A stretch of DNA of 64,000 nt from Mustelus asterias (taxonomy: Eukaryota), in contig NC_135804.1 of NCBI RefSeq assembly GCF_964213995.1, positions 68,200,001 to 68,264,000 on the forward strand. The letters are read 5' to 3'. Every line of letters starts with the position of its first letter. Within the stretch, counting starts at the first letter, position 1. A program made the translations under genes and the position numbers. This document shows, piece after piece, positions 7,516-63,740 of this stretch. The notes beneath the pieces were generated by a model. It ran no database searches, was not told where the DNA came from, and was given only the letters and a program-made list of their open reading frames with translations.

Positions 7516-7677
7516 TTACTGCATACTCCAACCACAACGTCCGTTTGCAGAGTTGAAATGTGTCAGTGTGAGGAGAATGACAGTTGATTTTAAGAAAGTG
7601 GACGATACCCATGAGACGCCATATAAGGACATTACTTTCAGTATCGGTGAATCGTGGTCTCTCGTCTCGTTAATAAT
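7516..7677 (-). other. Candidate stalk/TM/short-tail segment, out of phase with the C1 exon
   Basis: After acceptor tttatttacag it reads, in phase 0, IINETRDHDSPILKVMSLYGVSWVSSTFLKSTVILLTLTHFNSANGRCGWSMQ*. The phase 1 required by the C1 donor gives D-Y-stop, and the intron would be only 51 nt. Confidence 0.3.
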
Positions 7678-7728
7678 CTGTAAATAAATAATCTTAATAA
7701 AACTTGTTTGCTCCACTATTTGGCTCAC

Positions 7729-8028
7729 CTTTCCAATTTAGAACATTGAAGCTGGCATTAACCGGAATAATAAGCGTGCGATGAGTTACTTGGCACGTTA
7801 CGTAACGGTCAGTTCGTGTGACAACCAAATAGCTGAAAAGTTCATAAAGTCCTTCGGAATTTAGATATTTAAATGTATTTATCCCAGTTGCAACACGAAA
7901 GCCATCCTTGTACCAAGTTACATTGATACCATCCGGGTAAAAAGCCGCCGTTTTACACGAAATAATTAGAGACTCGGGTGTCTTATTTGCAAGTAACTCG
8001 GACTTGATGCTCAACGGAATTGGAGGAA
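7729..8028 (-). CDS. Ig C1-set exon
   Basis: Acceptor tttattttgcag|TT and donor G|gtgagc enclose 300 open nt, phase 1-1. C1 hallmarks: ISCKTAAFYPDGINVTWYKDG, GLYELFSYLVV, VTCQVTHRTL. Read-through adds GEPNSGANKFY* (stop 7694-7696). Confidence 0.95.
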
Positions 8029-9564
8029 CTGCAAAATAAAGCAGAAACAGACGCATTACAACGACTATGTTCATCTCTGCTTTGTAACCAACATTTCGCC
8101 CAGTCATTAGATTTGCACTGTCCTTAAATTTACTGTGATACTTTGCACTGACGTTCACGACGATTAGAGAGCAATTTTCTATTGCACCCTTTAAAGGGTA
8201 TAGAGAAATAGTGTGAGGAGTGCAAACAGCTGGGCATCTCTTTTATGCATTAAGTTCAATACAAAGAAAACGTGTAATGTCTTTCTAAACCATGGAATAT
8301 TCGCTCGCATATCCAATTCAATGGAAACAGACAGACAAAGTCAAATTGCGAACAAATAAATGTATTATTAAGGAAAAGTGATGAATGAGGCAGAAAAAAA
8401 TCAAACATTTGCATTGTACTAATATCTTCCTAAATTGCCAACCATAAGTAAAATCTGGACAAATGCGACTATCGTTATATTAATCGTTGCAAGAGAGACA
8501 GCAGATTAAAAACATTCTTTGCTTGAGTTCTGAATTGTTTGGACGAATTCAGTAGTTACGATTTAATTAAGTATAATACACTAACGCCTTTCCAATGCTA
8601 TCTCGGAGAGCTACGGTTTCACCGAAACGGCTAGAGAAACCGCACTCTGCGAGAAAAAAAAATCCCGATATCGTTGTTTGACTGTTCTTAGCTGGTGGAT
8701 CAAATTTGCTCCAGCATTAACAAAGGGAAGTCCTATTATGCACCGCCGTCAAATGTAAAACGAAGTCGACTCTAAAGTGGTGAAGTTTCACAAGGGGCGA
8801 ATCGATAGAAAAGGGGACAACAATTAATATTTTAATCCAGGGCACCGAAAATACAATTATAACTAATTCTCGAAATTAATGTTTGATATAATCCTATCTT
8901 AAATATGTCGCAGTTGAGTGATTTTCGAGACACTGTTGGATTTTATTTTTCAGGACTGAAAGCCTGGTGTTCAATGCAGTCTATAAAGAATCGAGAGGAT
9001 AGTTTCAAGAACAATAGTTTTCCTTCCGAACGGCTAGATTTTCATGTTGGCCGATGCAGTGATGGAAGCCAATTGGTAGTTCCATTACACAACACTTCCC
9101 AATGCATTTTATTGACTTAAATTTAAATATAAACCACAAGAGCGTAAAACGTGCTCCCAATTCGTTACATTCCGCTTTGGCGGAAAGTCAGGATCGACAG
9201 AAACTTCTTCATCAATCGAATAGCAATGGTGTTGAATTTCAGTTCTCACACACAACCCTGGATTAATTGAATTGTTATCACAGTGGAAATCGCTTTATAT
9301 CGGCTTAATATTTTCTTGTGTCTACCACCTCCCCACCGCTCCCCCCCCCCACCCCCCGCCCTTGACTTTTTATGTTATTTTGCATCACCGCATTAAGACT
9401 TCGAGTATAATTTTCAATTGTAACGCAAAGAATGGATTGATTGCAAATGTTTCTCATCAGAGCTATTGGAAAACGATAAGCAATGAACATAGTAATTTCA
9501 TACATATGCGATTTCACCTGTTATGAATTATAAAATGAATGATGTGTGGGCGATTTTCGCTTAC

Positions 9565-9885
9565 CGTAGATAACAAGCTTTGACCCAGTTCCATTTGCAA
9601 AGAGGCGATCCAGATGTTTTACTCCGCAATAATAGACCCCTGAGTCCGCGGCGTGGACTTTCAGGAGCTGAAGAGTGGCTTCACCTTTCTTCAAAAGACG
9701 AATTACTTTTCTGCTGTCCGATCGTGACTGCAGAAAGTCAGTATCGCCCAGTTTCCACCAATATATATTCACATTCGAAATATCATTAAAAAGAGGAAAC
9801 GCGCAATAAAAGGTGACGTTTTCACCTGCCAGCCGGTGAGCACTTTCGGGGGCTTGGGACACTTTTCTCTGACCATCAGCAACAT
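9565..9885 (-). CDS. Germline-joined V-J type Ig V-set exon
   Basis: Acceptor ttcctcacag|AT and donor G|gtaagc enclose 321 open nt: DVADGQRKVSQAPESAHRLAGENVTFYC...NIYWWK...ATLQLLKVHAADSGVYYCGVKHLDRLFANGTGSKLVIY. It has the B-strand Cys, C-strand Trp, DxGxYYC and a J-like GxGSxLxI strand. Confidence 0.95.
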
Positions 9886-10066
9886 CTGTGAGGAAGAAAT
9901 GCAAACAATAAGATCATCTATGGCAAAAAAGGAGAAAAAAGGAAAGATTTCGAACCGATCGGAGAGATGAGGCATGGCTGAGGGGGGTGGTGGGGGGCGG
10001 GTGGTTAGGGTGGAAGGGAGGATGTGTTCGGAGGGGGAGTGCGGTGGTAAGGCGTCAAATACTTAC

Positions 10067-10124
10067 CTGCGTGAATAATGATGAGAACATTTACACATAG
10101 ATGCAAAACAGCGTCCAGAAGCAT
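10067..10124 (-). CDS. Leader (signal peptide) exon of a V-C1 IgSF gene
   Basis: ATG at 10124 reads MLLDAVLHLCVNVLIIIHA plus 1 nt (58 nt), followed by a consensus donor G|GTAAGT. Phase 1 matches the V exon acceptor 180 nt downstream. Confidence 0.85.
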
Positions 10125-10574
10125 TTCCAACAATAGAAACTATCAGTTCGCTACTCGGTGAAACTTGAGCCTAGTTTGTTCCGAAATAGAATACAAAATT
10201 AACTCGCCAAGTTAGGTCCATGTGCTGTCCGTGTAGCGGATGAGGCAAGGCAACCGATGTGGGAACGATTAGTCCTGAGCATCATACGTAGTCAGCACAT
10301 TTGAATAATTATTCGTGAATAACCGCAGAGCTTTGTTTCTGGGCTGATCAACCTAATGGTCGACGTGGAAAACGTGACAGGAATGGATAATTAAACTGAT
10401 ATTCATAATTAAATATAAGTGGCTGATAAAATTGAAAATATTATTTCAGCACTGAATTATATTTTAAATTAGTTTAACGGGTTCACCATCATTGCTCAAG
10501 GCTAAAGATGGTGAAGTGTGCGACAAATGAAAATTGACGTGCATTCATTAAACAAATCGCATCGGGAAGGTTAA

Positions 10575-12130
10575 GAACATATGTATTAGGAGCGGGAGTA
10601 GACAGTTCAGCCCATCGAGCCCGCTTCGCCGTTTACTATGGTCTTAACTTCGTCTCAACTGCACTCCCCTGTCTGCTCCCTATAACCCTTTATCCTGCTT
10701 TTTAGCAGAACTCAATCTATTTCTTTCCTGAAGCAGTTGATTGATTCTGCCTTCACTGCACTCTGGGGTAGTCAATTCCACAAATTCACGATCCTCTGAG
10801 AGAAGTAGTTTCTCGTCCTCTCAGTTTTGAATCTACCTGCCCTCACTCTATATCTGTGACATCTAGTTTTTGATTGTCCCACAAGGGGAACATCTGTTCA
10901 ACGTCCACCTGATCATTCCCCTTTAGCATTTTGTATATGTCGATCAGAACCTCCGTTCTGAACTCCAGCAGGAACAAGCCCAACTGGTAACAAACTAACT
11001 GCGCTGAGGCTAATGCACGTGGGTGCCTGTTCGTAATTTCTGCGAACCCTTCTCCATATAACAATAAAACCATAGATATGACCATTTGGCCCGTCTTGTC
11101 CATGCTGACCCATTGACATCTAGGTGTCCTTTCTAATCCCATCTTCCTGCACACGGCCCATGGTGCTGCAGAGTACAGCACTTACAGAGCAGAAATGCGT
11201 ACTTTTCGAGGGTTAAGGGTTTATGCTTCTACCACAAACTCATGCAGCGAGATCCAGACACCCACCATGTTCTGCGTAAAAAAAACATTTGCTGAAATGC
11301 CCTGTAATCCTGCTGCCACTTAGCTTGAATCTATGACCCTTAGTTATTGAACTCTCTGCTAAGGGAAAGAGGTTCTTCCTATCTAGTCTCTTCCTCTACC
11401 CCTCACAAAACACCTCAATCCTGTCACCACTCAGCCTTCTCTGTTCCAAGGAAAACAACCCCAATCTCTCCAATCTCTCCTCGTAGCCCTGGTAGCAAAT
11501 CGTCTTTGCAGTCTTTCCAGCGCAATTCTGTCCTTCCTTGAAAGTAGTGACCAGAACTGCGCACAATACCCAAATGTGGCCTCACCAGGGTCTTACACAA
11601 TCCCATCATTATATCCCGAGTTTTGTTATCTTTACTTCTGTCAATGAAGGAGAGTTTCATATATGCCTCCTTTACAACTTTATCTACCTGTGCTGCAAAT
11701 TCTAGTGACTCTGCATGTGCAAGCCAAGATTTCTCACTTCATCTACCACTCTCAGCATCTTCCGGTGTATTGTGTATTTCCTTCAGCTGTTTGACGTCGT
11801 GAAATGCACCACTTCGCACTGATCAGAGTTGAACTCTATCTGCCACTTTCCTGACCACTCCACCAACTCACCTTTGTCATTTTGGACAGTTATCCTCTAT
11901 CCGGCATTTTTTTGTTTCGCGTGCAAATTTCCCAATTGTCTCCCAAATCATTAATATATTTTTAAAAGTAGCTGGGGCTCCAGGACCAAGCTCTGTGAAA
12001 TACCACTTGAAACCGCTTTCCATCTGCAAGTCCACCCATCGACCATTATCATTTGTTTCCTGTTGTTCAGGCAATTTGCCACATTACCCTGTTTCCCATG
12101 ATTTTTTTATTGTTTTGACCAATCTACCGT
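10575..12130 (-). mobile_element. CR1 LINE fragments (nested)
   Basis: LIDIYKMLKGNDQVDVEQMFP and LCKTLVRPHL motifs; two 3' ends. Confidence 0.8.
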
Positions 12131-12739
12131 TGAATCTGCGTCCATCCAATATTTTTTGTTGTAGCCAATAGTTCCATCTAAAGGTTGCCTGAATGGCACA
12201 GCCAGGAAGTAGCTCCATATGAAATAAAACCTATCTGACAATTTCATCCTCTAATGTGCTGGGCAAAAAGCGCAGGAATGCAAATCACAAAGATTTGAGC
12301 ATTTGCATTTCCATTATTACTGCTTTCCAGCGCCATTGCTTTACAGAAGTTCACAATTCCTGCTTGAAACTGATGCATATCCAAAGCTAATCAGAGGGGA
12401 CATTCAAAACAGAGCACACAATTGTAAACGTAGCCATACTGGCTATCGTCAGCACACATTGAAAGTAAAGCAATTATGACATCACTTAGGTGTGGATGTT
12501 CAGTATTTAAATATTTCTTTCAACTTCTAGCATCTTGTATCTTTTCAATACAATCGCTTACCCATCCAAATGTCCCCGTGTAAAGATTGGCCAGCTGAAT
12601 ATAATTAAAACATGTCGCCATTTAGTCCAATTATTAACACAAGGTAGGTCAACATACAATGTTGGTCAGCTTTGCATAAATCATACATTTTCATTGAATT
12701 TTAATACACATTGATGCTCGAAAAATTATCTAGTTATCT

Positions 12740-13250
12740 GACGATACAATATGTAACTGATAGTTCAGGTAAAGGGGAGCCAGTCAATGCAACGTGTTTG
12801 GATTAGCAAAGCAATATATAAGATGCTAATCAAGAGCGCAAGAGGAGGTCTCACAGAATTAGTACAATGTATTAGCGTGAAGTGATGATGAGATAGGAAA
12901 AGGAAACACAACATTTTATGTCTTGGATTAAGTGGGGCCAGGATCAGTTAAGGGGATTTAGCTATTTGCAATCTATTTCATTCATCTGGACAAAAAGACA
13001 GAGCAAAGTGTACCAACCTGATTGATGTAAAGTTAGAGGGCAATATAACTTACAAGAAATGAATAGAGAGCACAAAATTGGTCTAGATGGTTAAGTGAAT
13101 GGCCAATAAGGTGAGAGGTGGAGCATAATGTAAACAATTATGTGGTTATCTTCTTTGATAGTAATAATATGAAAAGAGATTTTTTTTTACAAGAAAAGCT
13201 TAAAGTTTCAAAGTTTCAATGTTCAGAGAGATTTGGCGGTACTTGAGCAA
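12740..13250 (+). mobile_element. Degenerate CR1 RT fragment
   Basis: Degenerate RT-like sequence (GEPVNA.CLD; tttaatgt..aaatgtg-type motifs) with many stops. Confidence 0.5.
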
Positions 13251-13264
13251 TGAGTGCAAAAAGT

Positions 13265-13500
13265 TAGCCTCGAGACCATTCGCAGCATTTGCGTAATATT
13301 TGACACTGACATGAGCTTTAGTCTTCATATCTCCATGCTTGATAAGACCAATCAATTCCTCCTGTACAATGTCACTGGACTTCACGTCGGCCCCGGAGTA
13401 CTGATTTTGATTCAGTCATTCCCACATTCATTACCTCTTGAATTGTCTATTCTGGAACATTGCACTCAATCTTTTCCATGATACCTCGATAAACTTAAAG
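13265..13500 (+). mobile_element. L2 LINE relic
   Basis: TIRSICVIFDTDMSFSLHI..KT..FLLYNV resembles the L2 motif VRNLGVIFDxxLSFxxHI. Confidence 0.55.
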
Positions 13501-13959
13501 ACATCCACACCTGTTCCCGTTGTGCTTCCATGCACCATCTTCTGTTCATATTTCACAACTGTGTCTGCTGGTGTACAATAGCTGCACCACAAGCGATGCT
13601 TGCAGTTTGAAATTCGCAACCTTCCTTCCCAATCTCTCCATGGTTTAACGGTTCCACTATCTGTAATATTGTCCAGTATCACAAACTGTCGATATAACTA
13701 TGTTTATGCAACTAGAATACAAGAGGAAAAATAAATGTAAAAATAGACAGGAAGAATTTCTCCAAACGTAGACAAAAAAGAACGTAGCTAAGGCAAATAT
13801 TGCTCTTGAGCTGTTACGAATTAATAATACGAAACAGCGGAATGGCAAAGACTTCTAACACGTGGTTGTAACTGTCTCTGAATTAGGGGAGAAAGCAATT
13901 GTAGAATATTAAGAAAATAAAGAGTGGAAAGCTCTTCAGAAAAATTCATAACATTGATT

Positions 13960-17560: not shown

Positions 17561-17639
17561 ATATATACATATATATTTGAACTGTTTGTCAGGATATTTA
17601 AATCTTTCCAAAATACCTCTATGGCCTTATATACCCTCC

Positions 17640-17990: not shown

Positions 17991-18184
17991 CAAGTAATCT
18001 AAAATAATGGCATTGTCTCCTTCCAACAGCAAATAATTCACGAAGTTAAGGACATATGCATGAGAGATAGCGCTATCTGAAGAGAGATGTAATTATCTTA
18101 GTGGGACGAAAACTGTAGTGGAGACCACTTACGTAATACTGCGAGAAATACAATTGTGACTTTCTGCAACATAACGACAATTAA

Positions 18185-18273
18185 CGCACACAAGAAGAGC
18201 TGAACCAGTTTCGTTTCCTCTGTGGTCAGCAGCTTGGACCCAATCATTCAATACCTCCCAGATGTTTTACTTC
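18185..18273 (-). pseudogene. Relic of a V-exon 3' end followed by a second J-like strand
   Basis: 18258-18271 is identical to 9610-9623 (14 nt) and 18231-18242 matches 9576-9587 at 11/12. Translates as EVKHL..(frameshift)GSKLL, then GNETGSALLVC. Confidence 0.5.
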
Positions 18274-22699: not shown

Positions 22700-25600
22700 G
22701 ACTGTCTTTGCCTCTCATACATTGTTTCAGTCTGTGTACCGCTTGCACCTACTTCTCTTCAGTACAGAACAAACACTATCTTTTCTAAAAGAGCGATGAA
22801 ATTTTACAATTTCTAGCATTTCAGAAGATTTTTTGATAATTTGGCAGATACTAATTTCACAATACCTTCACCACTTTAGAAAAGAATGAACCTTCATCAT
22901 GAAAAGTTGGCTTCATTTTTAAAAAACTCATGTTAAAACATATGCAATAACATTTTCATGACCCACAACATGTACAATCTGTAAGTTAAATGCTTGTAAC
23001 AAGTGACACTTTATTTATCTAATTAACAGTAAACAGGTTAACGAAACTATTAACAAACCAAATAAAACATTATGCTGACAGAATTCTGTTTAAATAAATA
23101 CAATTCCCACTTATTAAAAAAATGAAATATTTCGTCACACTCAAAATACAACTTGTTGTTATCTTCCGGAATCTTGTTTATTCTTTATCTTCACTTTTCA
23201 CTATCTTCTGTTGGCATCTTTGTAATTAAGATTAGGTTTTTGTTTAAGATATAAATGTGGCTATTACACTGTTAGATGACAGTTGCTGGCTATGTGCATT
23301 TCTCTCAGAGCAGAGCTAAGCTGTTACTCAGCAGGTGACAGGCGTTCTTCTACCGTTTGTGCCCTTGATCCTGTCTTTTATACTCCTAATGATATACCAA
23401 AATCCCTACAATAGGATTGGTTTGCAGGTTATCAAAACATCAAATTCAAATCTGATATGTTGCTGCTATTCAAATGCCTATCTCAAATTGATTGGTTAAA
23501 ATTCAAAAAGATGTTCTGATTCAGATGCCTGAAGTCTGTTACCAAGTCAACCCTGCTGTCTTTGCCTCTCATGCATTGTTTCAGTCTGTGTACTGCTTGC
23601 ACTTACTTCTCTTCAGTACAGAACAAAAACTACCTTTCCTAAAAGAACCATGACATTTAAAAAATTTCTAGCATTTTAGAAAACTTTTTCATCATTTGGC
23701 AAACACTAATTTCACAACACCTTCACCCCTTCAGAAAAGAATGAACCATCATCATGAAAAGTTGGCTTCATTTTTAAAAAGCTCACGATAAAACAAATGC
23801 AATAACATTTTCATGACCCACAACATGTACAATCTGTAAATTGTACATGTAACATGTAGCTTGTAACATAAGACTCCAACAAAATAGTCTGGCCATCTTA
23901 TCCTTTAATCTTTCCAGAAATGTCAAAGGATTCTGATCAGTATACACAATCAATTCTGATTAATTGTTTGTAACATAATCATTAAAATGTTGTAAAGATA
24001 TTACTAAAATTATTAAATACTTTTCAAAATTGAAATATTTTGTCAGGCAGATATTGTGGGGTTTTTTCGAAAATTAGGCGATTAGCATTTCAATTCAAAA
24101 ATTATTCTCCTGTAACAGCACAGCTCTAACACTTACATTGCTGACGTCAATAGTGACTTTAAATGTTTTCAAGAAGTTTGGTGTGGCTAAAACAGGTTCG
24201 GTGGTTAACACTGCTTTCAAATTCTGATATGCCTCTTGGTATTGTTCTGTCCACCAAAATTTCATGTTCTTTTTTAACAAGGTCGTCAACAATGCCACTG
24301 GCTGCTAAAATTTCATACGTACCTTTGTAGAAGCCGCTCAATCCCAAAACTCACTGCACTTTCTTCTTCAATGATGGTCTTTGAAATTCCTCGATGGCCT
24401 TCGTCTTCAGATTTCTCAGTCTCATCCATCCGTATCCCATATTGTGTTCTAAAAATATCACTTCTGCCTCCGCAAATTCTTTTTTGCCAAGTTTATGACC
24501 AATTTTGTGTTTCGTAGTCTCTCAAAGAACTCTGCCAAATGCTCCATGTGATCTTTCCAAGAACGATTAAAAATCACTAAGTCACCAATGTAAACATCGC
24601 AATTCGTCAATCTGGCAACAACTCTCTTCATAAAGGTAGCGGGTGCATTTTTCATCCCAAAGGGCATTACTTTAAATTGACATATCCCAATTGGGGTTAG
24701 AAAAGCAGAAACTTCTTTAGCTCTCTCTGACAAAGTTACTTGCCAATAACCGTGAACTAAGTCCAACTTTGTGATGTAAGTAGTTTGTCCAGCTTTTCCA
24801 CACAATCCTCCAGCCTTGGAATTGGCTATGAATCAGATTTAGTCATAGTGCTAACCTTGCGATAATCTATGCAGAATTGTTGAGTACAATCAGGTTTGAG
24901 GACCAACATTATCGGCTAAGTTCACTTGCTTTGACTTGGCTCTCTGATATCTTCATGTAGCATTGCTTTCACTTCCTTCTGAACCTGAACTGCTTTGGGA
25001 GGCATTCGCCTTTAGGGTATTATTTTATAGGAACAGCATTCTCTACATCAACCTCATGTACTATATCTTTAGTCCTCCCCATTGTCTTTTTACATAGGAC
25101 CTCATAGCCCTGTAACACGGCTTTAAATTCAGTTCTCTGGTCCTGAGGCAGGTAACTCACTACCCCTATTCCATTCCTTAAGTTCTTCTTCATTATTCAA
25201 TTTATTCTGAGGCACATCAAAATCTACATCATCTGGATTTGATTCCTCACTCTGAGTGGCAGTATCTAATACTTGTTTCTCCGGTTCCCTGTCCCTGTTA
25301 TAATAGTCTTTTAGCATGTTCACATGACATACCCTATGCATTTTTTTCCTATCTGTCATCTTTACCAGATAATTCACCTGACTATATTTCGCCTCAATCT
25401 GAGAACCACTGGCCACTAAACCTGGCCAACAAGGGATCTCCTGCCATTGGTAATAGCATGAATACTTTATCCCCATGGGCAGACGTAGAATTTTAGATTT
25501 CTTATCTGCTTCTTGTTTCATTAGTTGCTGTGCCATTCACAAATGTTGGGTAGCTAATTCATCCATTCTGTTTAATCTTTCTTTCACCTGAGCTATATAA

Positions 25601-26917
25601 TCCAACTGTGAGATCTCTGACTTTGGACCTACCAACTTTTCCTTGACGAATTTTAAAGGACCTCTTACTTCATGTACGAATATCAAATCAAATGGAGCAA
25701 ACTGAGTCGACCAAGTTGGACAATCTCTAATCGCAAATGATATAAATTTAAAGGATGCCTTAATCCCAATCAGTTGGGTAATCCTGGCAATAAATCCTCA
25801 ACATGGTCCTCAGGGTATGATGCCAACTTTCCAATGTTCCCTGGGATTCAGGATAGTACACACTTGAGATGAAGTGTCTGATACCTAAAGCAGCCATGAC
25901 GTCCTTAAATAATTTGGCAGTAAAATTGAACCTTGGTCTGACTGAATCTCCCTGGGTAATCCATAACAGGGAAAGAAAACAAGCAATTCCTCCACAACCT
26001 TTCTTGCCTGGATAGTCCTCTGGAATCCTGGTGGACACATCCATTACAGCGAGAAAATACTGGTTCCCACTTTTGGTTTTAGGGAGAGGATCTACACAAT
26101 CAACTATAACCTATGTAAAACGTTCTTCAAATGCAGGAATTGGCATCAAGGGTGCTAATTTTATCGCTGCCTCTGGTTTTCTTATCATCTGACATGCATG
26201 ATAGGTTTGGCAACGTTCAACCACATCTCTATGTAATCCAGGCCAATAAAAGTGCTTCTGTATCTTAACCGGAGTCCTCTTTCATTCTAGATGACCATCT
26301 GCAGGTAATTCGTATGCCACCCACAATACTTCCTTTTTGTATTCTACCAGCAACACAATTTGGTGAATTTCTGCCCATTTCCCACCTGCAGTTACCTGCC
26401 AAAGTCTGCAGTTTTGCCTTAAGATTTTATCCTTCAGGTAATAGCTTCCTGGAATACACTCTCATTCCTTTTCTGTATCGGCTTCATGATATAAATCTGT
26501 CATCATCTCATCTTTCTATTGTAACTCCATTAATCGTTCAGAACTAGATACCTCTGCCTCATCCTTTATCTGCTTAGATGTTTTCCTTTACCATCTCATC
26601 GAACATAGTGACATACCAAAGTTCCCACAATAGAATTTGCTTACATGTTCTCAAAATATCAAATGCTTTTCAAATTGATTGGTTAAAATGCCTATTTCAA
26701 ATTGATTGGTTAAAATGCAAAAATATGTTCGGATTTAAGTGCTTGAAGTCTGTGACAAAGGAAACCCTGCCGTTTTTGCCTCTGGTACATAGTTTCAGCC
26801 TGTGTACTGCTTGCACCTGCTTCTCCTCAGTACAGAACAACACTACCTTTTCGAAGAAAACCATGAAATTTCACAACTCTTAGCATTTTAGTAGTTTTAA
26901 AAATAATTTTACAATCA
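22700..26917 (-). mobile_element. Gmr1-like (Ty3/Gypsy) LTR retrotransposon, degenerate and internally deleted
   Basis: Minus-strand order is integrase (HFYWPGL; PLPKTKSGNQY..MDVSTR; YYPESQGTLESWH), then RT (KLDLVHGYWQV, MPFGMKNAPATF, YIGDLVIF), then RNase H (DVSNVSVRAVLLQE). A purine tract lies at ~23720-23740, with LTR-like repeats at ~22995-23719 and ~26620-26917. Confidence 0.85.
22995..23719 (-). repeat. Putative 3' LTR
   Basis: TG..CA ends, adjacent to a PPT-like ggggtgaagg on the minus strand. Part of it is repeated at 26620-26917 and 22700-22866. Confidence 0.6.
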
Positions 26918-26929
26918 CACTACACAGCA

Positions 26930-29421: not shown

Positions 29422-29459
29422 GATAATACATAAAGTAATATAACAATCCATCAACATTA

Positions 29460-42483: not shown

Positions 42484-42489
42484 CACCAG

Positions 42490-47345: not shown

Positions 47346-49149
47346 TAAGGCTTGTGGTCCTGTTCAATTTGCTGACTCTTAATATATTTTTCTTTTTTTT
47401 CAACTAAAATGCATTGTTCCAGTTTTGTTTTATATCAAGTGTCGATTTCTGTCGACGTCAGGGAAGATTGTTATAAGTAATTGCGGAGGTCCAAGCCGTA
47501 TTGTTTCCTGCATATAACAGAGTATATAGCTGTTAAATTGTACATTCTCAGCTTGGATACGAAACACGTCAACTCTAGCTGCAAATGATGCATCATCAAT
47601 CTGGCCTATCCTACAAATGTTACATCGATCTAAAATGATCATTTCCTCTTCCGGCACAGAAGTACACAGATTCTCATGTGGAATTCTACAGAAAGGGTTC
47701 GACTTATGAATACGGAGAGCAGTAGCTGGGCATTAATTGCAGATGTGTGAGTTAACCCTGATTCCCGCAAGCGAACCAGCAAAGTCAAGAAATAAAACAG
47801 AACCAGCAGAAACGGTCAGTTCATCTGCAGTTCCGAAAGAAGCGAGCTTTGCATTCTAACTCTTTTCACCAGTTGGGAGTCATTTGACCAATTGGGGGTT
47901 TACGCACTTTTCATCTCTGACTAACGTTAATAGTAAACCGATTACAATATGAACAAAATGTTTGAATTTGCCCTTAGCGAGCTTAATTTCACCCTTCCAA
48001 CAGTCTAATACAGAGGTTGGGCTGACATAGGATAATACCTCCGCCCGTTACAATTTAGTTTGCAAGTTTGTCCATGACAAATTTAATTGCTCAGTTGTCT
48101 TCCCAATATTCAATGTAAATTTCAAAGTCAACTACGGGAATCTCGAGGAAGCGAATCAAGCCGACAACATCAAAATGTACCGAATACATCAGCTGGAATT
48201 TGGAGAAAAAGTCAAATTCTTTGGAGCTATTTCTACGAGCTTTCTCACATTCATCTGATGTAAATGTGATAATTTACACAAGGTTAGAATTCACGCTAAT
48301 AGCTAGGCGGTTTCTTTGTCCGTCTAACGTCGAAATTTCGAAAGTCGGCAACCCTGGGATGTAGAGATGGATTACGGGGAAAGAAAAAAACACTAACTGG
48401 TGTTCGGTCTCTCGCACTTTAAACAGTTCTAAATCATTTCAGAGTGTTAACTGTTAGATATTGCCTGATTTCGCTGTTGTAATTCTGGTAAACTCTCTCA
48501 GTAACACCGTGAAACTGACAACTCTTTAGTGGCATTATCACATGTTTAGTCAAATGCATAAATCCAGAATGTATTGGCAGTCATTTCCTGTTGCTCTACA
48601 GGGGTACGGTTTTGCCTGTTATTTCATAAGATCGCACCTTTTCAAACGAATCGTTTTGAATTGATCCGCAAAGACAATGGCCAACGTCAAAATGATCAAA
48701 GTGGCCGATATATATCGGGTTAAATAACCAAACTGGGAAATCGTATACACCCTCTTAGGCGTAAATAAAACAGATTTAAATTGCTATTTGTTCTGCAGAA
48801 TATCCGCATAACAACTATATATGAATAAACGGATGAGTTGTTTTCATAACTATGAAGTCAGCTATTAATTCATTTCTATAGTACTTGATCATAATTTTGT
48901 AAAATGTCTACGGCACTACAATAAATATTATTTCATGGTCTTTACAAAATTCGTAACAGCATAATCGTCACAGCACCAGAATTTCGTGGTTTTACTGTTA
49001 ATATTAATTTATAATTATTCTACGGATTGCTTTCCAATTTAACAATGCTGTGGTACTCTCTGGGAAAACACAAAAAATACAAAACAAAATACTGAGGGGA
49101 TGTGTCAAAATTAATAAGCTCGGAAGACCTATGAAAAACCGCATCAATT

Positions 49150-50410: not shown

Positions 50411-51547
50411 TAAAATGTTTTCAAACATGCCAACCTCAAAACTACTCGAAGCGAGATCTCCTGCTTGGCTGCTCGCTGATTGTGGATCCGAACAAAAAAG
50501 GTGTAATTTTTTAACTTAATACCTGACGTAATACCCGGGCCAGCAGACCAAGTCCGCCCTGTCTCGTGAACGCAGCTTCAGGATGACCCGTCAGGACCGC
50601 ACCCGAGGTTTTTGATAAGCGCGCTTTGAGGCCAAATGCGCATGCGCCGGGACTTACGGGACGTCCCGCGCGTATGTTCGGCGCTCCAACAGCGGAAACT
50701 GGCTGGAGGTTACGCCCGTATCTGCATGTATTCGGAAATATTGTAAGTTACTTATCTTGCAAAAGGAGCGAGAAAAGACCTGTTGGATATTTAACCTCAA
50801 ATCGAAAAGGTCCAATGGAAGTTAATGCTTCCCTAATAAATCAAAATTTCAGACTAGAGGAATGACATATGCTTTGACATTTGAGTGGAAGGCAATGGGA
50901 AATCAGCCCTGAAAAAAAAACTGCCAGGTTAACGGCTCAGGGTACGGTATCAACTGACAATTAGCCACTGACTTGTTGTCGGGCAGAGCAGGCAAAACTG
51001 AAATGCATGAATTCTGAAATATAGTCAAAATGCAAGTTCTTGAAAAGCAATGCGTTAGTCGCAGGAATGAAAATTATATGTATGGCAACACTTATAGAAA
51101 GTGTTCTGAACTTCACGATGTTATTAATTTTAGAAATATTTTAGGTCATTACACTTGGTAGTAGATTTTGCAACTTTCAAATCTGAAACTTCAAAAACAC
51201 ACGTTTACCAACACGTGGATAGCCAATTTGAACATATTGAAAGCAATCCAGCCGAAATGTTAAGAAACCGTGTTCAGATAATTTCGCAAATTCTATAACT
51301 TAGTTTGAACTTAACAAACAGACCTTTTCTAATGCAAAGTCATTCTTTATCGAATTTACGATTAAAATCAGAGTGCGAAACACACGTTATTTAGGGTTCT
51401 ATCGTGAATGCTGAGGCGTAATGTAAAACGCACACAATCAAAGGACCAATATAATTGTTAAATGAGGAATAAGTCATTCTATTGTGCTTACTTACATTTT
51501 TGGTTATTTGAAATATTACCAAGGAAACGTCCTACAGTCTTACCTAC

Positions 51548-51828
51548 CATGAATGGCAAGCATTCCATTTCTGTTTACGTCACTCCGATGTTTGACCCCA
51601 CAGTAATATACCCCAACATGTTGCAAACAGACATCAAGTGAAAGGAACCCTGGCCTTTCCACAAAAAATATCGCCTCCTCCTGTCTGAATTTGGCTGCAT
51701 AAATGTACTTTCGCCGGGTCTCCGCCAGTAAATATTCACTTCAGAATTAGTGGAAAAATGTGGGAGCGTGAAAGCGAAGGTACCATTTTCACCAATTATC
51801 ACAATCTTTTGATGGAGGGTTTGGAAGC
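51548..51828 (-). pseudogene. V-exon pseudogene paralogous to the 9565-9885 exon
   Basis: Reads GENGTFAF...EVNIYWRRPGESTFMQPNSDRR...KGQGSFHL, then a frameshift, then VGVYYCGVKHRSDVNRNGMLAIHG|gtag. GVYYCGVKH is identical to the intact gene. The first Cys is lost (TTC) and the J strand is shortened. Confidence 0.85.
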
Positions 51829-54459
51829 CTTGGAACAGGACAGCGATAATAACTCAAAAATGTAAGAGATCAGACTCCCAGGAAATCAAAGATATCTCTC
51901 CTAATGGAAAATTGATGCAAACCTGAGATAGGTGATAGAATAGGAATAGACAGAAACAATACCTGTGGGTAAATATCACGATACGCTGAAGTATGGCACA
52001 AGCAGCTGTATTCCGTAAGTAAGTTGCTATTTGCTGTAAACCAATAGGAAATGCTATTTCCAGCTCCCTTCGTGGGTGAACAATTTCGTCCAAATGGCTG
52101 CCAATTATGCAATAATGAAGGGCGCACGACATATTAAAAGCAACCATGCACAGTGACGAACGAAAAGATGGAATATCTAAGTTTTGCCCGGAGCATTGTA
52201 TGATTTGAACATCACACAATGCAAGTTTTCGCTGACGTACAATTGAGACCACACCGTTTTACCCGGAGTATCGGTTAGCGACATATTAAACCGCAATAAA
52301 TTACTTAAAAGACCGTTTCCTGCATTACAGCATGTGTAAAACTAATTGTTTTAGAACAATGAAAATGTTGAGACACTGAATGCAAAACGACTTGGTGATT
52401 AATAACATTATAGACTATTATACTGATTTTCATAGCGATTAAATTAAGCCCGAAGCTACCGTTTCAATGCGAGGCAAAGCAAACTGTCCAGATACGCTGT
52501 CATGCTCATACGTCCGTTCTTGGACTGGTACATTCTTCCTGAGAAGACCAACGCAAACTAAAGGAATGGTGTAACTTCCGGTCCGAAATGCCGGGGCACA
52601 TTGCATATACCTCAGACATGTCGGTGGGACAACACGGAAGTCCCGACGCATGCGCGTTTGGTCGAGGTTATGAAAGCGACCGGTCCTGAAGCGCTATACT
52701 GCAATTGTGCCAAAACCTCCAGCACCTGCGCTGTAGTTCGGTGAATTTTTGCGCTTATTTATTTGCACTTTTAGTTTTTGGCCCGGCAGCAGCGCATAAA
52801 GGCAGCAGACATTCTTTGGGTTTTTTTTTTCTTGTCCATGTTTCATAAATTGTTTGATAAGTAAAGCACAGAAAATGTAAATATTTTTTTACCTTTTTTA
52901 CAACATTGTCATGAAAACTAATTGCATTAAAATTTTTCGTCATATAAAACAAGTGGAAACAAAAGACAAAATGCTGGAAAGTCTCAGCAGGTCCGGCAGC
53001 ATCTGTAAGGAGAGACAAGAACGAACGTTTCGAGTCCAGATGACTCTTTGTCAACGCTAAAAGGCATAGAAAGTGGGAGATATTTATACTGCAGTGTAAG
53101 GGAATGAAAGATGATCCATAGCAATAAAGCAATAGGAAAGGCTGCTAATGGCAGTCCATAGAGAGAATGAAAGGTGTGCATGGCCAAACGGCAGAGAAGC
53201 TGAAATCAGAGGGTAATCTGTAACAGATGAAGAAGTGGGGAGAGCAGGGGGGAATAGGTGGGAGAGAGGTAAAATTGAGAAAAAGGAGGAAAGGGAAAAC
53301 AAAGCGGGAGAAAAGGTAAGGCTGAGCACCTGAGGTCTGTGCGCAATCAGGACCCTCACCTTCTCGTTGCCATTTTAACGCACGATCTTTCTCTCATGCC
53401 CACATATCTGTCCTTGGCCTGCTGGAGAAACAGCATCTCATCTTCTGGCTAGGCACATTACAACTTTCCGGTCTCAACATCGAATTTAACAACTTCAGAT
53501 GATTAGTTCTACCCCACCTCAATCCTTTTGTTTACATTTCACTTTATGTTTAACTGTTCTCTACCTTTTACTTGTTTACTGTTCTTTCCCCCACAAACGT
53601 TCCCCTATTTTAGCCCCCGTTTCCTTACGTTTTCTCCCCCCTTGCTTCCCCTTTCTTTCTTTTTCTCAATTTTACCTATCTCCCACCTATTCTCCCCCTC
53701 TCCCGCCCATATCATCATCTGTCACAGCTTACATCCGAGTTCAACTTCTCAGCCATTTGGCCATTCAATTTTATTCGTTCCATGGACGGCTATTGGCAGC
53801 TTTTCCCATTATTGTTGTGGCTATGCAATGTTTTATTCCCTCACCCTGCAGTATAGATATGTCCCACTTTCTGTGCATTTTAGCTTTGACAAAGGGTCAT
53901 CTGGATTAGAAACGTCAACTATTTTTTCTCATTACAGATGCTGTCAGACCTGCTGAGATTTTCCAGCATTTTCTCTTTTGGTTTCAGATTCCAGCATTCT
54001 CAGTAATTTGCTTTTATCCAGTGTTGAACTCACTGCTACTTCTCTTCCAGGAATGCCTACCCTGAAGGAGTACCGCTCTTCTTTCCGACAGGATTTTGGC
54101 ATGTCTCTACACAACACCAACCCCCCCCCCCCCCCCCCCCCACCCCGCCCCCCCCCCCCCCCCCCCACCCTGGCCCGCCACCCCCACCACCACCCTATCC
54201 ACCTTAATTGCTTTCCATTTATCTCTCAGTGTTGGAAAAGGTATTCACCAAGACTCGCTTCCACAGCATTTCCTTCCTCAGTGACTGTCTTCGCCTCTGA
54301 CTTACCCCAAGTGGATTTCAACTCAAATTCCACCCCACACGTAACCTCCAGGATTACAGATATCTCCAGGATATCCATCATTCTTCGAACTGCTGTTCTC
54401 GCTGCATCCTGAAAGCTACACTCAGTGCCATGCGTAACCACATGAAGACATTCGACATC

Positions 54460-57913: not shown

Positions 57914-58111
57914 CATTGATTCTTGTTTAACTCAGCTAGTTCAAATGCTTCAGGAAAGTATATCACTTAAGATGATACAGGCAAGTCTCCCGTAATGTTT
58001 ATTCTAATTTTAAGATCTTCCTCATGCACCATTGATTCTTATGCAACTTGGCCAGTTCAAATGCTTTCGGAAAGCATATTTATCAAAATGGCATATTCAA
58101 TTCTCCTGTAA
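57914..58111. repeat. Old tandem duplication (~116-bp period)
   Basis: cattgattctt...agttcaaatgctt..ggaaag at 57914 and 58030. Confidence 0.6.
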
Positions 58112-59145
58112 GTTGATGTGAACTCGGCATTACAGAATTCAATGCTGCTTGAAAATCTAGAGTTATGTTTTCCACCGCTGGAACATCGCACTATTTCCCT
58201 TGATACTTAACTGAAGCTCTTTTTGAAATTTGATGTGGACATGGAAGAGTCATGCTGCATGTAAAATCCAAACACTCCCCGTCTCCTATTTCTCCCCCTC
58301 CCTCCTTGCCCCATCCTTTTCCCTCTCCTTTCCCCTCCCCTCCTTTCCCCCTCCTTCCTACCCCCTCTTTCTCTCCCCCCCCCCCACCTCATACCCATCC
58401 CTCACCTCCTTGTTTAGCGACAACATAATTGTTGCGCTAATGTATAGATATTTTATTGATTGTTGTTGGAGATATATGTTTTGTAAGAAACTTGAAAAGA
58501 CGAGGCAATAGAGCATGTCAGGGCAGCTGCTGAAGTAAAATGTTTAGTTAAATATTAACATGGTATCAAAGTTTTCTACTAATAATATTTTTGTTAATCA
58601 ATATTTTCCATTAAACTACAAAATTCTGCTGATGCTTTATTGAAACAGAACAAATATTTACATATGAAATTATATAAATACTTTACTTAAACATACAGTA
58701 CAGTTCAATGTAAGAATTATAAATAAAGTAAGAAAGGCAGAAGAATACTAATGATAAACACATCTAGACTTTCCATGGCCCAAAACGTGAACGCTCCTCT
58801 GATCGGTCTCATCCAGGCATCCAAATCGTGAACAACAAAGAACAAAGAAAGTTACAACACAAGAAAAGGCCCTTCTGCCCTCCAAGCCTGCACCGACCAT
58901 GCTGCCCGGTTGAACGAAAACCCCCTACCCTTCTGAGGACCATATCCCTGCTGATTCAAGAAATTCTGACCATATTCTAAATCAAAACACACAAGTTCTG
59001 ACAAACATGCCACACATATTAAAACATTACGTAATAATACTTATTATTATATTACGTAATAATTTGGGCCGGCACTGTGTCGCACTTTTGCCTCATAGTA
59101 CAAAGGACACGGGCTCAATTCCGGCCTTGAGTGCCTAGGTGCACT

Positions 59146-59230
59146 TCCTCGGCCATTTATGTTGGATGTATGTCACCTTATATATGATACACAACGGGCA
59201 ATGGATGCTGAGCTTGCCTGTGTGTCTATG
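59146..59230 (+). pseudogene. Possible degenerate V-J 3' end on the plus strand
   Basis: One frame reads SSAIYVGCMSPYI*YTTGNGC*ACLCVY-G|gtaaga, resembling ..ANGTGSKLVIY-G|gtaag. It has two stops, and a SINE fragment lies immediately 5'. Confidence 0.3.
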
Positions 59231-59739
59231 GTAAGAAGATCATGTGACTATTTCAGACTATCTTTTGTAGTAGATAACAGTTGATGTTACTTGTGGTACA
59301 TCTCAGTCTACCGCCAAGTTCAGAAATTTGTCATAAGATCAGGCAGAATCAATACAGCATTATTAAACGGTGCTTCCAAAGCTTTCACAGACCTTGAGGT
59401 CATTTTTTACTCGTTAAGACACCTTAATTAAATTTCATATATACACATTGCACCTTTTATAAGCAGCTCTGTAATGATGCTGAATGCAAGTTAAGAGCAA
59501 GTATTGGCTAGAGAATTGACAATGCAGTCCAGGTTATCAAAATCAGAACGATAAACTTTCAGCCACCATGTACTGCTCTGCTTCAGTAACGTGTCAGACC
59601 GTGTCAATAAAAGGCCAAAGGCAGTTTATCAGACTATACTGACCTCCCTATAAAACACGGTGAAATCCGGTGTTTGGCAGTTTTTTCCATAATTTCAAAC
59701 GGTGGAAAGCAAAGTGCAGACTTACGTATTTCCTCCCAA

Positions 59740-60670
59740 AATAGTGATTCCCAAGATAGGCAGTGAAGTTGTCAATAGGAGGCAGAAAATCTACAAAGGG
59801 ATACAAACAGTTAAGTGAGCGAACAAAAAATTGTCAGATGGAGTATAAAGTGGATAACTGTAAACAGTGCTCACTTTAGCAGGAAGAAGAGAAAAGCAAT
59901 ATGCTGTTGAAATAGAGAAAAATAGCAGTAAAGAGGGATTTGTGTGCCCTGGTACATGTATCATACAAATATGGTGTGAAGATACAGAAATTGATTAAGA
60001 AGTCTAATGGAATTTTAACGTTTAATGTTTAAGAGGCAAGGAATATAAAAGTAGTTTAGTTTAACTGTGACTTTATAGGACCTTGGTGAGACCGCATCTG
60101 GAGACTTGGGCATCTGGATAATAGGGTTAATAACCGCATGCAGATTTGGTCTATTTTTTAAGTGTAATTACTTTAGAAGAGCCTCATTTACGTTTTACTG
60201 AACTCATTCCTGGGAAGAATGAATTGTGTTAAGAACAAACGTCGAACAGGTTCGGCCTATACCCATTAGAGATTGAAAGAATGGTCGGCGAAATTACTGA
60301 AACGGATAAGACCATGGCTGGGCTTGATAGGATACATATCCGGTAGTAATTTCGTCTCGTGGGGGAGACTGAAACAAGAGGGCATAGTTTATAAATAATA
60401 GGTCTCCCTTTTAAGACAGGGATGAGAGGACATATTTTCTTCCAACGAGTCAGTACTGTGTGCATTTCTGTTCCCGAGAAAGTAGTGGACGCTGGGTCTT
60501 TCAATTTATTTAAGACAGAATCAGATATTTATCAGGCAAGAAAATTATGAATTATGGAGGACCGACTGGAAAGTGATTTTGAGGTCAAAACCAGACTAGC
60601 CAAGACGTTGTTAAATATGGCAGCAGGATCGAAGAATCGAAGAGTTTACTCCTGTTCCTAAATTCCTATG
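59740..60670 (+). mobile_element. Degenerate CR1 3' fragment
   Basis: LYRTLVRPHLE motif, agggcatagttta, and a CR1 tail. Confidence 0.75.
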
Positions 60671-61275
60671 GTCGTGCATTTATGCCTTCGGCCAACCGCA
60701 TGTAAACATACTCTTTGGAAAAACAATCGAGGTAGCCCAACTCACCCATTAGTCCCTAATACCTATAATTTTGTTTCATTTAAGATTTGATCTAATGCTC
60801 TTTTGAGTCATCCTCTCAGGCAATGCTTTATTCCATTCATAAAAAAGGTTTTCCCCACATTCTCTCTTTTCTTCCTCTCTCCTCTTTGAAAATTGTCATC
60901 AATCGATGTGCTCTGATTATAAACCACTCTGGCACTTGCAATTTCCCCTTGCTCACTCTATTTGCAGTTCATAATTTCAAACACCCCTATAAATTATTTG
61001 CTTAGTCATCTCATCTTTAAGAAGCACAGTTTGTCTTTTTGTCGATTTATTCAAAATACATTGAATGTGAAAAACATTCATATGGTTAAAAAAAGTCACA
61101 CAGTATCATGGAGCAGAGCGGGAGTCCATTTGGGCCATGGCATTTATGGCGGATGTTTAAAAAAAACAAATTCGTTTCACCCTTCTGCTCTTTTCCCACA
61201 ATTCTGCAGATATTTTTAGTATTATCATACTATTAAACTAGTTAATAGTATTATTAGTAGTATTTACTGTATAAT

Positions 61276-62317
61276 CGTGCAAGGAAAAGGTTACAAAATG
61301 TGGGGGATGTGAGAAAGAGTGGAAAGATTAGTGCATGACATTCGTGAACGTAATAATGAATCCAGAAGAATGTACAGTGCCTAATTCAAAGGTGAGATTC
61401 TGTTCTTTGACCTTGAGAAGCCCTTCACTGAGGGCACAGATATCGAAGTGAGAGAAATCTAAAGAGAGATATACTATTAAATATACGCAGAATTGTGGGT
61501 AAAGAGCAGAGGCGTGAAACGAATTTTTTTTTTAAAGATTCGCCATAAATGCATGGCCCAAATGGTCTCCAGCTCTGTTCCATGATTCTATGTGACTTTT
61601 TTAAAATAATACGATTAAATATACTCACAGGACGCTTCCGAATAGTACATACAAATGATAATAAGTCGGAGGGTGTGCTGTACATCTCAGTATTTCTCCT
61701 GATACTTTTGGCAATTATTTTACTTCTAGATTCTTTGGTTGATCATGCTACCTTCGAGGGAAATAACTTTATTCAAACACAATATATTTTACAAATCCCA
61801 CGCAAAAATGATGGGTATTCGAAGCAAGTGGAGGGATATCCTTTCAGTTGGTACCTTTCATCTGATGTGGGGGAAGTTAGCAATAGGCTTTAACGAGGTG
61901 GAATGAGGAATGTGGAAATGCAAAAACAAAATTAAAAACAAGTCTTTGGGTGAAAGGAAGCAGATTTTCAATGTCGAAAATGTTAGTGTTGCAGGGACAA
62001 AGCAAATCGAAATGACAGAAGGAAAGATATGAAACATCGGTACAGATCAGGTGTAAATGATAGAGTAATGAAAAATTGCCGAATGACACGAGCGAAAAAC
62101 ACGAGCGGAAGAACGTTGACATCGATACGTGCAAGGAAAAGGTTACAAAATGTGGGGGATGTGAGAAAGAGTGGAAAGATTAGTGCATGACATTCGTGAA
62201 CGTAATAATGAATCCAGAAGAATGTACAGTGCCTAATTCAAAGGTGAGATTCTGTTCTTTGACCTTGAGAAGCCCTTCACTGAGGGCACAGATATCGAAG
62301 TGAGAGAAATCTAAAGA
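61276..62317. repeat. Identical 190-bp direct repeat pair (61276-61465; 62128-62317) from a degenerate Penelope end
   Basis: No mismatch seen by eye. The minus strand reads EQNLTFELGTVHSSGFIITF (cf. PLE EQHLIFRLGTLQPSGLNIEF). Confidence 0.9.
61631..61760 (+). other. Candidate orphan transmembrane exon
   Basis: After ctcacag| in phase 1: GRFRIVHTNDNKSEG-VLYISVFLLILLAIILLL-DSLV. The 18-aa hydrophobic run is at 61675-61728. The 3' end is undefined. Confidence 0.3.
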
Positions 62318-63437
62318 ATTAAAATGGCAGGCAACACGGTGAGCAGGGTAATGGTTGCAGACCGATATAGGTGTTTGGCAAAGTGTTTGGCCAGCCAATG
62401 TCAAGGAAATGGCATTGTGAACAGCGAATACAGTATATTAAATTATAAGAGGTACAAATAAATCATCGCTCTCCCTGAAAGTTGTAACTGAGTCAGTCTT
62501 GAGAAAAGAGAAGTTAAAATGGAGTCTTAATACCTTCTGCATTTGCGTGGAAGAAACAATGGGAAGGGGGCAGTGTAATGAGGATGATAGAGTTGCGAAT
62601 AAGGTATTTCAGAATGAAATATTCTTTCGAAAGGCCGAAAGGGGAAGGGGTAGGAAGATCTGTTTGATGGTGCCATCGTGCTTCAGCAGTAGAAAATATT
62701 GGAGAATGGTGGGTGCAAGTTAAGCACGATGTGAGCAGTGGTAATGTATGGCAGTGATAATTAGGAGAAGGCTTAAGGGAAAAGTTTGGTATCAATGTCA
62801 GAAATGATCAAGCGCCCTGTGAAGAAAGACATTCCTGTTTGTGCATCATGGGAATAAAGAAGAAAAGGTTATTTATTTTCATTGTTGTTGTTTTTTCCAA
62901 GGCTCCCTTGACTTCATCTCATGTGGAGATTTTCCCAGCATGGCTTCACAACTCATCATCCTTCAGCTCTGAATACATTGCTTCTCTTCCTTTCCAAAGG
63001 TGTACCAGCATGACTGCCCTGTAAGGCATGTCATTTCGGGCCATTCCTACCAAATGATCTAATTTCGTCTGATCCTAATTATACTTTTTCTGCCTGCATC
63101 CGTTTTCCTCCATGTTCCATCTGTAACTTTTCTGATGCACCCTGTCACTTTAAAATACTACAAATTCCTAGGCCTAATGGTCCCATCTTCACCATGGACA
63201 TCTGATCTTTGCACATTTTAATCACCTTATTCACGCCTGAAAAGTGACAAAGTAATTTGTCGTCAAATAAATTTTAAGTCCAAATCAATTTGTGTTAAGC
63301 TAATGTAATGTCAAGAATAACAAGGAAAAAGCTGACTGCAAAGGAGAAGCACAAAAATGCCGTATTCTCATTTTAATGAAGAATATAGGTTTATTGAATA
63401 TTAAGCTGTTGGGTACAAGAGGAAGGTTTCAAACTAA

Positions 63438-63740
63438 TTATGGATTTTTCCAAAAAGTAATCTGTGTCGCTATTATGGCTAGAAAACGATTCATAAGACA
63501 AAGCAATACCAATTTCTGCATTTGTCTGCTCATGCACATTGTCATGTAAAATTTTGGCGACAGAATCACAATGAAGTTGTATTGGCTCACATGAGTTTTG
63601 ACACATTGATCCCTATATTTAGAAATGTTAGATGATGTTTCCTCTCGTCGTAGATGGTCTCTGCCGTTAGCTTTTAGATTATTCTCTGGTAACTGAACAT
63701 ATCCTGATCTCTGGTTCTTCAATTTAGCCGTTTCTTTTTC
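63438..63740 (-). other. Candidate cytoplasmic exon with an ITIM-like SGYVQL motif
   Basis: Good acceptor ttgttcgtctcttgcag|G. Phase 0 reads EKETAKLKNQRSGYVQLPENN..., a hydrophilic start. No upstream exon was identified in the window. Confidence 0.3.

What the first reader, a model, noticed from the sequence alone, without database searches (positions are those of the whole stretch)
7516..63740. Window may be part of a birth-and-death cluster of paired VJ receptors
Seen: one intact gene, one clear V pseudogene, two weaker V/J relics, two TM-like segments containing Lys, one uncharged TM-like segment and one SxYxxL-containing candidate exon, all embedded in transposons. Known: paired receptor families (SIRP, NITR, LILR, CD300) combine charged-TM activating and ITIM inhibitory members in unstable clusters. 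Inference: this is a shark paired-receptor locus built on a TCR/IgL-like VJ-C1 ectodomain. Only the first two components are secure.
Basis: inference. Interest (0 to 1): 0.7.

Follow-up and report, generated by a model that had tools for sequence, protein, structure and literature searches.

The report
Shark paired VJ-C1 immune receptor cluster
This shark window holds one intact antibody-like but non-rearranging surface-receptor gene, one broken copy and the decayed tail of a third, inside a family of about 59 clustered copies whose members carry either a charged membrane anchor or brake-type tails, so they likely work as matched on/off immune receptors.

Summary
It has an outer Arg and an 8-residue tail. 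The 'Lys TM' at 7.7-7.5 kb is intron. Pseudogene B (51.9-51.5 kb) is real, with a likely Arg-TM relic at 48.7 kb. The tyrosine exon at 63.8 kb belongs to neighbouring gene C; two frameshifts have cut off its ITIMs, and the SxYxxL is out of frame. The genome has 59 related V loci in two C4 clusters. Of 52 examined, 10 have the Arg-type anchor, 31 a neutral-type anchor and 18 an ITIM-bearing tail exon. Seven Arg-type genes have neutral twins at 92-98% V identity. Relatives occur in sharks, rays and a chimaera. I found no positive selection (pN/pS 0.4-0.6). It works like SIRP/LILR pairs but fails SIRP, NITR and NKp30 membership features. Ligand, expression and adaptor are untested. Other scan reports describe the same family.

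The parts
10067..10124 (-). Gene A leader exon (19 codons + 1 base, ATG at 10,124)
   Evidence: Sequence and GT donor; 11 of 20 residues identical to the catshark ortholog P0003 by eye. The NCBI model P0001 instead uses upstream pieces at 24.4 and 20.9-20.6 kb.
9565..9885 (-). Gene A germline-joined VJ exon (V-set, J-like end)
   Evidence: Pfam V-set 31 bits; model pLDDT 86.9 with Ig V-like fold; single open exon.
7729..8028 (-). Gene A C1-set exon
   Evidence: Pfam C1-set 43.3 bits; 97% identical duplicate at C4:69.538 Mb.
3313..3421 (-). Gene A transmembrane exon: Arg near the outer end, Asp 17 residues later, 8-residue tail, stop at 3,317-3,315
   Evidence: 100% match to P0001, 58-84% to the five orthologs; splice sites; spacing.
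51530..51854 (-). Pseudogene B: frameshifted VJ exon, first Cys lost
   Evidence: 122 bits DNA profile; 71% DNA identity to the V at C4:68.029 Mb; duplicate near C4:69.588 Mb also broken.
48640..48750 (-). Likely Arg-type TM relic of pseudogene B (acceptor out of phase)
   Evidence: Same strand, 2.8 kb behind V; Arg-to-Asp spacing and distance to the GT donor as in gene A; the duplicate copy scores 5.5 bits on the Arg-TM profile. Not significant alone.
63962..64000 (-). 3' part of the penultimate tail exon of gene C (exon starts about 64 bases beyond the window; a frameshift gives an early stop)
   Evidence: Homology to P0007 residues 300-323 and a frame change after the first Tyr motif; same in the duplicate.
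63638..63805 (-). Last exon of gene C: LTYAAL in frame with the acceptor (63,778-63,761), stop at 63,719, SGYVQL out of frame (63,707-63,690)
   Evidence: no indel in DNA-run contigs laid here.
18167..18221 (-). Doubtful J-like relic
   Evidence: 10.1 bits against null best 7.0; fails shuffle test.
7516..7720 (-). Rejected: Lys-containing TM-like stretch; it is gene A intron
   Evidence: No TM profile match, wrong phase.

Best explanation
The window lies inside a large clustered family of non-rearranging VJ-C1 membrane-protein genes, and the family likely works as paired innate immune receptors, with gene A a predicted activating member. SHOWN: the exon anatomy; 59 V loci in two clusters plus one outlier on C4; a neutral-anchor class, many with ITIM tail exons, and an Arg-anchor class in which no ITIM exon was found; near-identical ectodomains across the two classes; pseudogenes and block duplications; genes for FcR-gamma-like and CD3-zeta-like adaptors in the genome. 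INFERRED: the V domain binds a cell-surface or microbial ligand; ITIM members recruit SHP-1/2 phosphatases; Arg members pair in the membrane with the Asp of an ITAM adaptor, most likely FcR-gamma (about 0.6), and signal through Syk-type kinases; the Arg exon has been moved between ectodomain lineages by duplication and conversion. Gene A is an old, conserved Arg-type lineage. Its neighbour gene C is its likely sister lineage and former brake partner, whose ITIMs are now cut off in this species.
For: Family size and place: 61 match rows of 111 candidates, all on C4, 59 loci after merging two split rows. Classes: of 52 loci examined, 10 Arg-type, 31 neutral-profile, 1 ambiguous, 10 with no TM found; 18 of 52 have an ITIM-consensus tail exon, 0 of the 10 Arg-type. 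Pairing: 7 Arg-type genes at 59.5-59.95 Mb have neutral-anchor twins at 92-98% V and 89-97% C1 identity, and those twins have ITIM tail exons. Tree of 91 rows: the Arg label needs 9 changes, at least 6 forced by well-supported branches. Gene A groups at 100/100 with single proteins from five other shark species; four keep the Arg. ITIM-tail relatives occur in rays and Callorhinchus. Adaptor exons found on C275 and C17. An outer-end Arg marks FcR-gamma-coupled receptors, tested by co-transfection for Xenopus XFLs (PMC2413239, passages read).
Against: No expression, ligand or signalling data. No positive selection: pN/pS 0.57 in CDR-like loops, 0.48 in framework (19 pairs), 0.39 in C1 (16 pairs). 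The Asn of the NxxR motif is absent from all Arg-type anchors listed, and the bamboo-shark ortholog has Gln for Arg. Gene A has no close inhibitory twin: 63% V identity to gene C, and the A/C sister grouping is weak (82/69). Tail exons of paralogs were found by profile; frames and splicing were checked only for genes A and C. Downstream DNA fetched per gene was 10-20 kb, so missing tails are not excluded.
Confidence: 0.78

Rival explanations
1. The genes are the shark SIRP family proper (a two-domain form), and the ligand is a CD47-like self marker.
For: Human SIRP-alpha (2wng) is the top non-antibody, non-titin hit of the family profile in the PDB, 78.9 bits over V+C1. Many members are auto-named SIRP-alpha-like. 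Tail motif order resembles SIRP-alpha (recalled).
Against: One C1 instead of two. An Ig light chain scores 76.8 bits, nearly tied. Two markers recalled as SIRP neighbours (SEP, syntaphilin families) map to C20 and C7, not C4. The charged residue is an outer Arg.
Confidence: 0.2
2. The genes are mostly ligands or adhesion molecules of B7-H6/tapasin type, as the automatic names suggest, and the Arg is only an anchor-boundary residue.
For: NCBI names such as 'NCR3 ligand 1-like' and 'tapasin-related'; purifying selection; many members show a short tail with no motif.
Against: Opposite signalling modules on 92-98% identical V domains; conserved J-like end. A multi-C1 locus near the RPS13 marker on C9 is a better B7-H6 candidate (the marker link is recalled).
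Confidence: 0.1
3. Gene A is a germline-joined antigen-receptor chain (IgL- or TCR-like) that pairs with a second chain.
For: VJ-C1-TM layout with phase-1 introns; antibody and TCR domains among the fold matches.
Against: No Cys in gene A's stalk; 14-28% identity in fold matches, tied with NCAM, PD-1, CD79b and NKp30; ITIM tails in paralogs.
Confidence: 0.05
4. Much of the copy number is an assembly artefact (uncollapsed haplotypes).
For: Some copies at 59.5-59.7 Mb are 100% identical in V and C1.
Against: The window's duplicate 1.3 Mb away is only 93-96% identical in most long blocks, with insertions; DNA-run contigs hold both forms at 63,869-63,986. Most loci differ by 40-65% in protein.
Confidence: 0.05

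Closest known systems
SIRP family (SIRP-alpha/beta/gamma; PMC12975943, abstract and section 3 read)
   Same: Joined VJ-type V plus C1-set ectodomain; inhibitory, charged-anchor and short-tail members in one family.
   Different: One C1, not two; outer Arg rather than DAP12 coupling through a mid-membrane Lys (Lys recalled); about 59 loci; not beside the two SIRP-region markers tested.
FcR-gamma-coupled LRC-type receptors and Xenopus XFLs (LILRA, NKp46, GPVI; PMC2413239, passages read)
   Same: Arg near the outer end of the anchor, short tail, paired with ITIM members, birth-and-death evolution with exon shuffling.
   Different: Ectodomain is VJ-C1; the Asn of NxxR is missing.
NITRs of bony fish (PMC2442602, passages read)
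   Same: Clustered V(J) receptors, mostly inhibitory, few activating, birth-and-death.
   Different: Second domain is C1, not I-set; NITR activators use DAP12; that paper reports NITRs only from bony fish.
UrIg/UrIg2, NKp30, PRARP (PMC12227049 parts 1-3 of 8 read; PMC10751288 passages read)
   Same: Non-rearranging single-exon VJ genes discussed as relics of the antigen-receptor precursor.
   Different: UrIg has 3 and UrIg2 9 or more C domains, both dimeric and linked to the MHC or the antigen-receptor complex; NKp30 has no C1 (recalled). None is described there as a large paired family.

Membership tests
Paired receptor family (functional class) | Similar ectodomains with opposite signalling modules in one cluster | tested here: met
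Paired receptor family (functional class) | Adaptor coupling and phosphatase recruitment shown in cells | not testable with these tools
   Needs co-expression and pull-down.
SIRP | V domain with joined J-like motif followed by C1 | tested here: met
SIRP | V-C1-C1 ectodomain | tested here: not met
   One C1 between V and TM in gene A and in nearly all paralogs; definition.
SIRP | Location beside NSFL1C/SNPH (link recalled) | tested here: not met
   SEP and syntaphilin hits on C20 and C7 only. Two markers; a translocation is not excluded.
SIRP | Closest sequence relative is SIRP | tested here: inconclusive
   78.9 bits against 76.8 for an Ig light chain; no tree with tetrapod SIRPs was built.
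SIRP | CD47 binding; DAP12 coupling of the activating member | not testable with these tools
   Biochemical.
NITR | Second domain of I-set type | tested here: not met
   C1-set above cut-off, no I-set hit for that exon.
NITR | Synteny with MAP4K2/MEN1/RTN3 or FGFRL1 | not tested
   Markers named were not searched.
NKp30/NCR3 | Single V domain without C1 (recalled) | tested here: not met
   C1 exon present.
LRC/XFL-type activating anchor | Arg near the outer end of the TM | tested here: met
LRC/XFL-type activating anchor | Full NxxR motif | tested here: not met
   No Asn three residues before the Arg in any anchor printed.
Rearranging Ig/TCR | Separate V and J segments | tested here: not met
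   V and J-like end lie in one open exon; no separate search for recombination signals was run.
B7-H6 (NCR3LG1) | Location beside RPS13 (link recalled) | tested here: not met
   Spliced RPS13 exon at C9:108.6 Mb; family on C4.

The most novel reading that the evidence does not exclude
This is a separate receptor family, older than the shark-chimaera split, built on an antigen-receptor-like VJ-C1 head and not orthologous to SIRP, NITR or NKp30. A mobile FcR-gamma-coupling Arg exon is repeatedly swapped onto inhibitory heads, and the family is the main on/off receptor system of shark NK or myeloid cells and a surviving branch of the pre-RAG receptor.
Probability: 0.3. Interest if true: 0.78.

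Novelty: new variant of a known kind. Interest (0 to 1): 0.55.

Why it matters
Paired activating and inhibitory receptors of cartilaginous fish are little described; a 2019 review notes that better genomes may reveal such receptors (PMC6795676, passages read). This family offers about 59 candidates with matched on/off pairs that can be cloned and tested. It also adds a large set of single-exon VJ-C1 genes to the search for the antigen-receptor precursor (PMC12227049). The window adds two points: an activating-type lineage conserved across six shark species, and a neighbour that has lost its ITIMs. The score is limited because paired receptors are a familiar design, function is untested, and at least six other scan reports already cover the family.

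Tried and rejected
Complex prediction of gene A's anchor with two FcR-gamma-like chains: no answer (score 0.10, mark 0.34). RNA runs: no RNA holder listed. PDB search with the TM exon: 0 hits. Fold searches did not single out a family: rows within 1-2 Z of each other; SIRP was not among the rows shown, which excludes nothing. Positive selection: not found by a coarse pooled pairwise count; site-level models were not run. The 7.5-7.7-kb, 18.1-kb and 61.7-kb hydrophobic stretches have no family match above chance. The NCBI model's first 100 residues (24.4 and 20.9-20.6 kb) match no other family protein and were rejected in favour of the leader at 10,124. In one search the locus at 67.717 Mb was wrongly labelled Arg-type; one search repeats the count without it, with the same result. 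Fine-scale synteny is unresolved: C4 carries RPL13 (27.4 Mb), an HNF4 paralog (17.1), a ZFHX-type gene (22.9) and an IRX-type triplet (43-45 Mb), then a Wnt gene (147) and a steroid receptor (142). I read this, from recalled human positions, as a 16q-like part joined to a 5q-like part; the clusters lie between 45 and 85 Mb, where I placed no marker. Nine paper searches found no description of this family. Ohta 2019 and Flajnik 2012 were not held; Dornburg and Yoder 2022 and Fu 2019 were seen only as titles; papers on shark NCR3 and skate MDIRs are recalled only. The elephant shark genome main text has no SIRP or NITR mention; its supplements were not read and may list these genes.
Full report
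Setting. The window is G000:C4:68,200,001-68,264,000. Its V exon is 100% identical to a protein named by NCBI as Mustelus asterias 'NCR3 ligand 1-like'.

Gene A. On the minus strand lie a leader (10,124-10,067), a V exon ending in a J-like stretch (9,885-9,565), a C1 exon (8,028-7,729) and a membrane exon (3,421-3,313), all joined in phase 1. The product would be 261 residues. Pfam gives V-set and C1-set above cut-off. The V model is confident (pLDDT 86.9) and Ig V-like without a clear nearest family. The anchor has an Arg near its outer end, an Asp 17 residues later and an 8-residue tail.

Pseudogene B. The V at 51.85-51.53 kb has lost its first Cys and its frame, and no C1 was found. The stretch at 48.7 kb is likely its Arg-type anchor, by position, spacing and exon end and because the duplicate copy is closer to the family profile. 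Alone it is not significant (E 0.42).

Gene C. The exon at 63,805 is the last exon of the next gene, whose V, C1 and neutral anchor lie 4-12 kb beyond the window. Its nearest long-tailed relative, P0007 from Heptranchias, has two ITIMs. In gene C a frameshift stops the penultimate tail exon early, and a second puts SGYVQL out of frame. Both are shared by the duplicate at 69.6 Mb, and DNA-run contigs of one sample show no indel at either place. Gene C therefore likely lacks ITIMs unless the damaged exon is skipped (inference).

The family. The V search gave 61 rows from 111 candidates, all on C4: 59 loci, 28 at 58.79-59.95 Mb, 30 at 67.67-70.02 Mb and one at 54.66 Mb; counts are lower bounds. 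I fetched 877 kb around 52 of the 59. Of these 10 have the Arg-type anchor (one in a broken gene), 31 a neutral-profile anchor, 1 is ambiguous and 10 had none in the DNA fetched; 18 have a tail exon with an ITIM consensus, none of them Arg-type. A few neutral-profile anchors also contain an Arg and were not counted as Arg-type. Seven Arg-type genes have neutral twins at 92-98% V identity, and those twins have ITIM tail exons. On a 91-row V+C1 tree the Arg label needs 9 changes, at least 6 on well-supported branches, which fits repeated exchange of the signalling exon (inference). The window's region is duplicated 1.3 Mb away at about 95% identity. A profile search returned 79 proteins, all but four or so from sharks, rays and Callorhinchus. 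Gene A groups with single proteins from five other shark species (100/100); its clade is weakly sister to the clade of gene C (82/69). Turtle and snake multi-V proteins scored about 50-60 bits on the V profile, without C1; their relation is open.

Selection. Pooled over 19 independent close pairs, pN/pS was 0.57 in CDR-like loops and 0.48 in framework; C1 gave 0.39 over 16 pairs. This is purifying. The method cannot see selection at a few sites.

Mechanism. By established knowledge, ITIM tails recruit SHP phosphatases, and outer-Arg anchors couple LILRA, NKp46, GPVI and Xenopus XFLs to FcR-gamma (PMC2413239, passages). FcR-gamma-like and CD3-zeta-like anchor exons exist in this genome. I infer that gene A is activating through such an adaptor (about 0.6) and that the family is paired (about 0.8). 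The NxxR Asn is missing and one ortholog has Gln. No ligand or expression evidence exists here.

Known families. It works like SIRP and LILR pairs but fails SIRP's three-domain ectodomain and the two-marker synteny test, NITR's I-set domain and NKp30's single domain. SIRP-alpha is still the best non-antibody, non-titin PDB match, nearly tied with Ig light chains, so distant kinship is open. Nine paper searches found no description; several key subscription papers and supplements could not be seen.

Earlier scan notes. Six unreviewed reports from other windows of the same clusters reach the same reading. They are not independent support. I had reached this reading before opening them.

Verdict. 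A real, large paired-type receptor family, a new variant of a known kind; interest 0.55.

Noticed in passing
window 24,429-24,322 and 20,910-20,612 (-): The NCBI model P0001 adds 100 N-terminal residues from these stretches, one next to retrotransposon sequence; no other family protein matches them, so the public annotation is likely wrong.
   Followed up: yes
window 24,461-26,110 (-): Decayed LTR-retrotransposon piece with reverse transcriptase and an integrase C-terminal match; LINE-type RT pieces at 27.6-28.1 and 45.0-45.5 kb.
   Followed up: partly
G000:C4 58.79-58.96 Mb versus 59.53-59.96 Mb: Four neutral-anchor ITIM genes on the minus strand face seven Arg-anchor twins on the plus strand; the inverted layout could favour gene conversion of ectodomains.
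   Followed up: partly
L086 (C4:68.54 Mb) and L039 (C4:68.10 Mb): A broken Arg-type gene 79% identical in V to an ITIM gene; in Heterodontus the same clade has an intact-looking Arg form (P0009), suggesting a dead activating partner in this species.
   Followed up: partly
L058 (C4:59.187 Mb), L059 (59.366 Mb) and copies: Neutral-profile anchors that carry an Arg near the outer end and show no ITIM exon in the DNA fetched: possibly a second, independent activating type.
   Followed up: no
P0061, P0079, P0086, P0161 (turtles), P0195 (viper): Reptile multi-V proteins with J-like ends come in ITIM-tail and Arg-anchor versions; the anchor of P0079 resembles gene A's.
   Followed up: partly
L118, L119 (C9:109.26-109.44 Mb): Two stretches with several C1-like exons about 0.7 Mb from RPS13; likely the true B7-H6-like locus (marker link recalled).
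   Followed up: partly
G000:C8 50.17-51.09 Mb: About 20 near-identical C1 exons in mixed orientation, probably an Ig light-chain or other multi-cluster locus.
   Followed up: no
G000:C71:7.176 Mb and C89:35.7 kb: Two intronless RPS13 copies with open frames, likely retrocopies.
   Followed up: no
L116, L117 (C4:67.63-67.64 Mb): C1 and Arg-type TM exons beyond the outermost V found, so the family is larger than the V count.
   Followed up: partly
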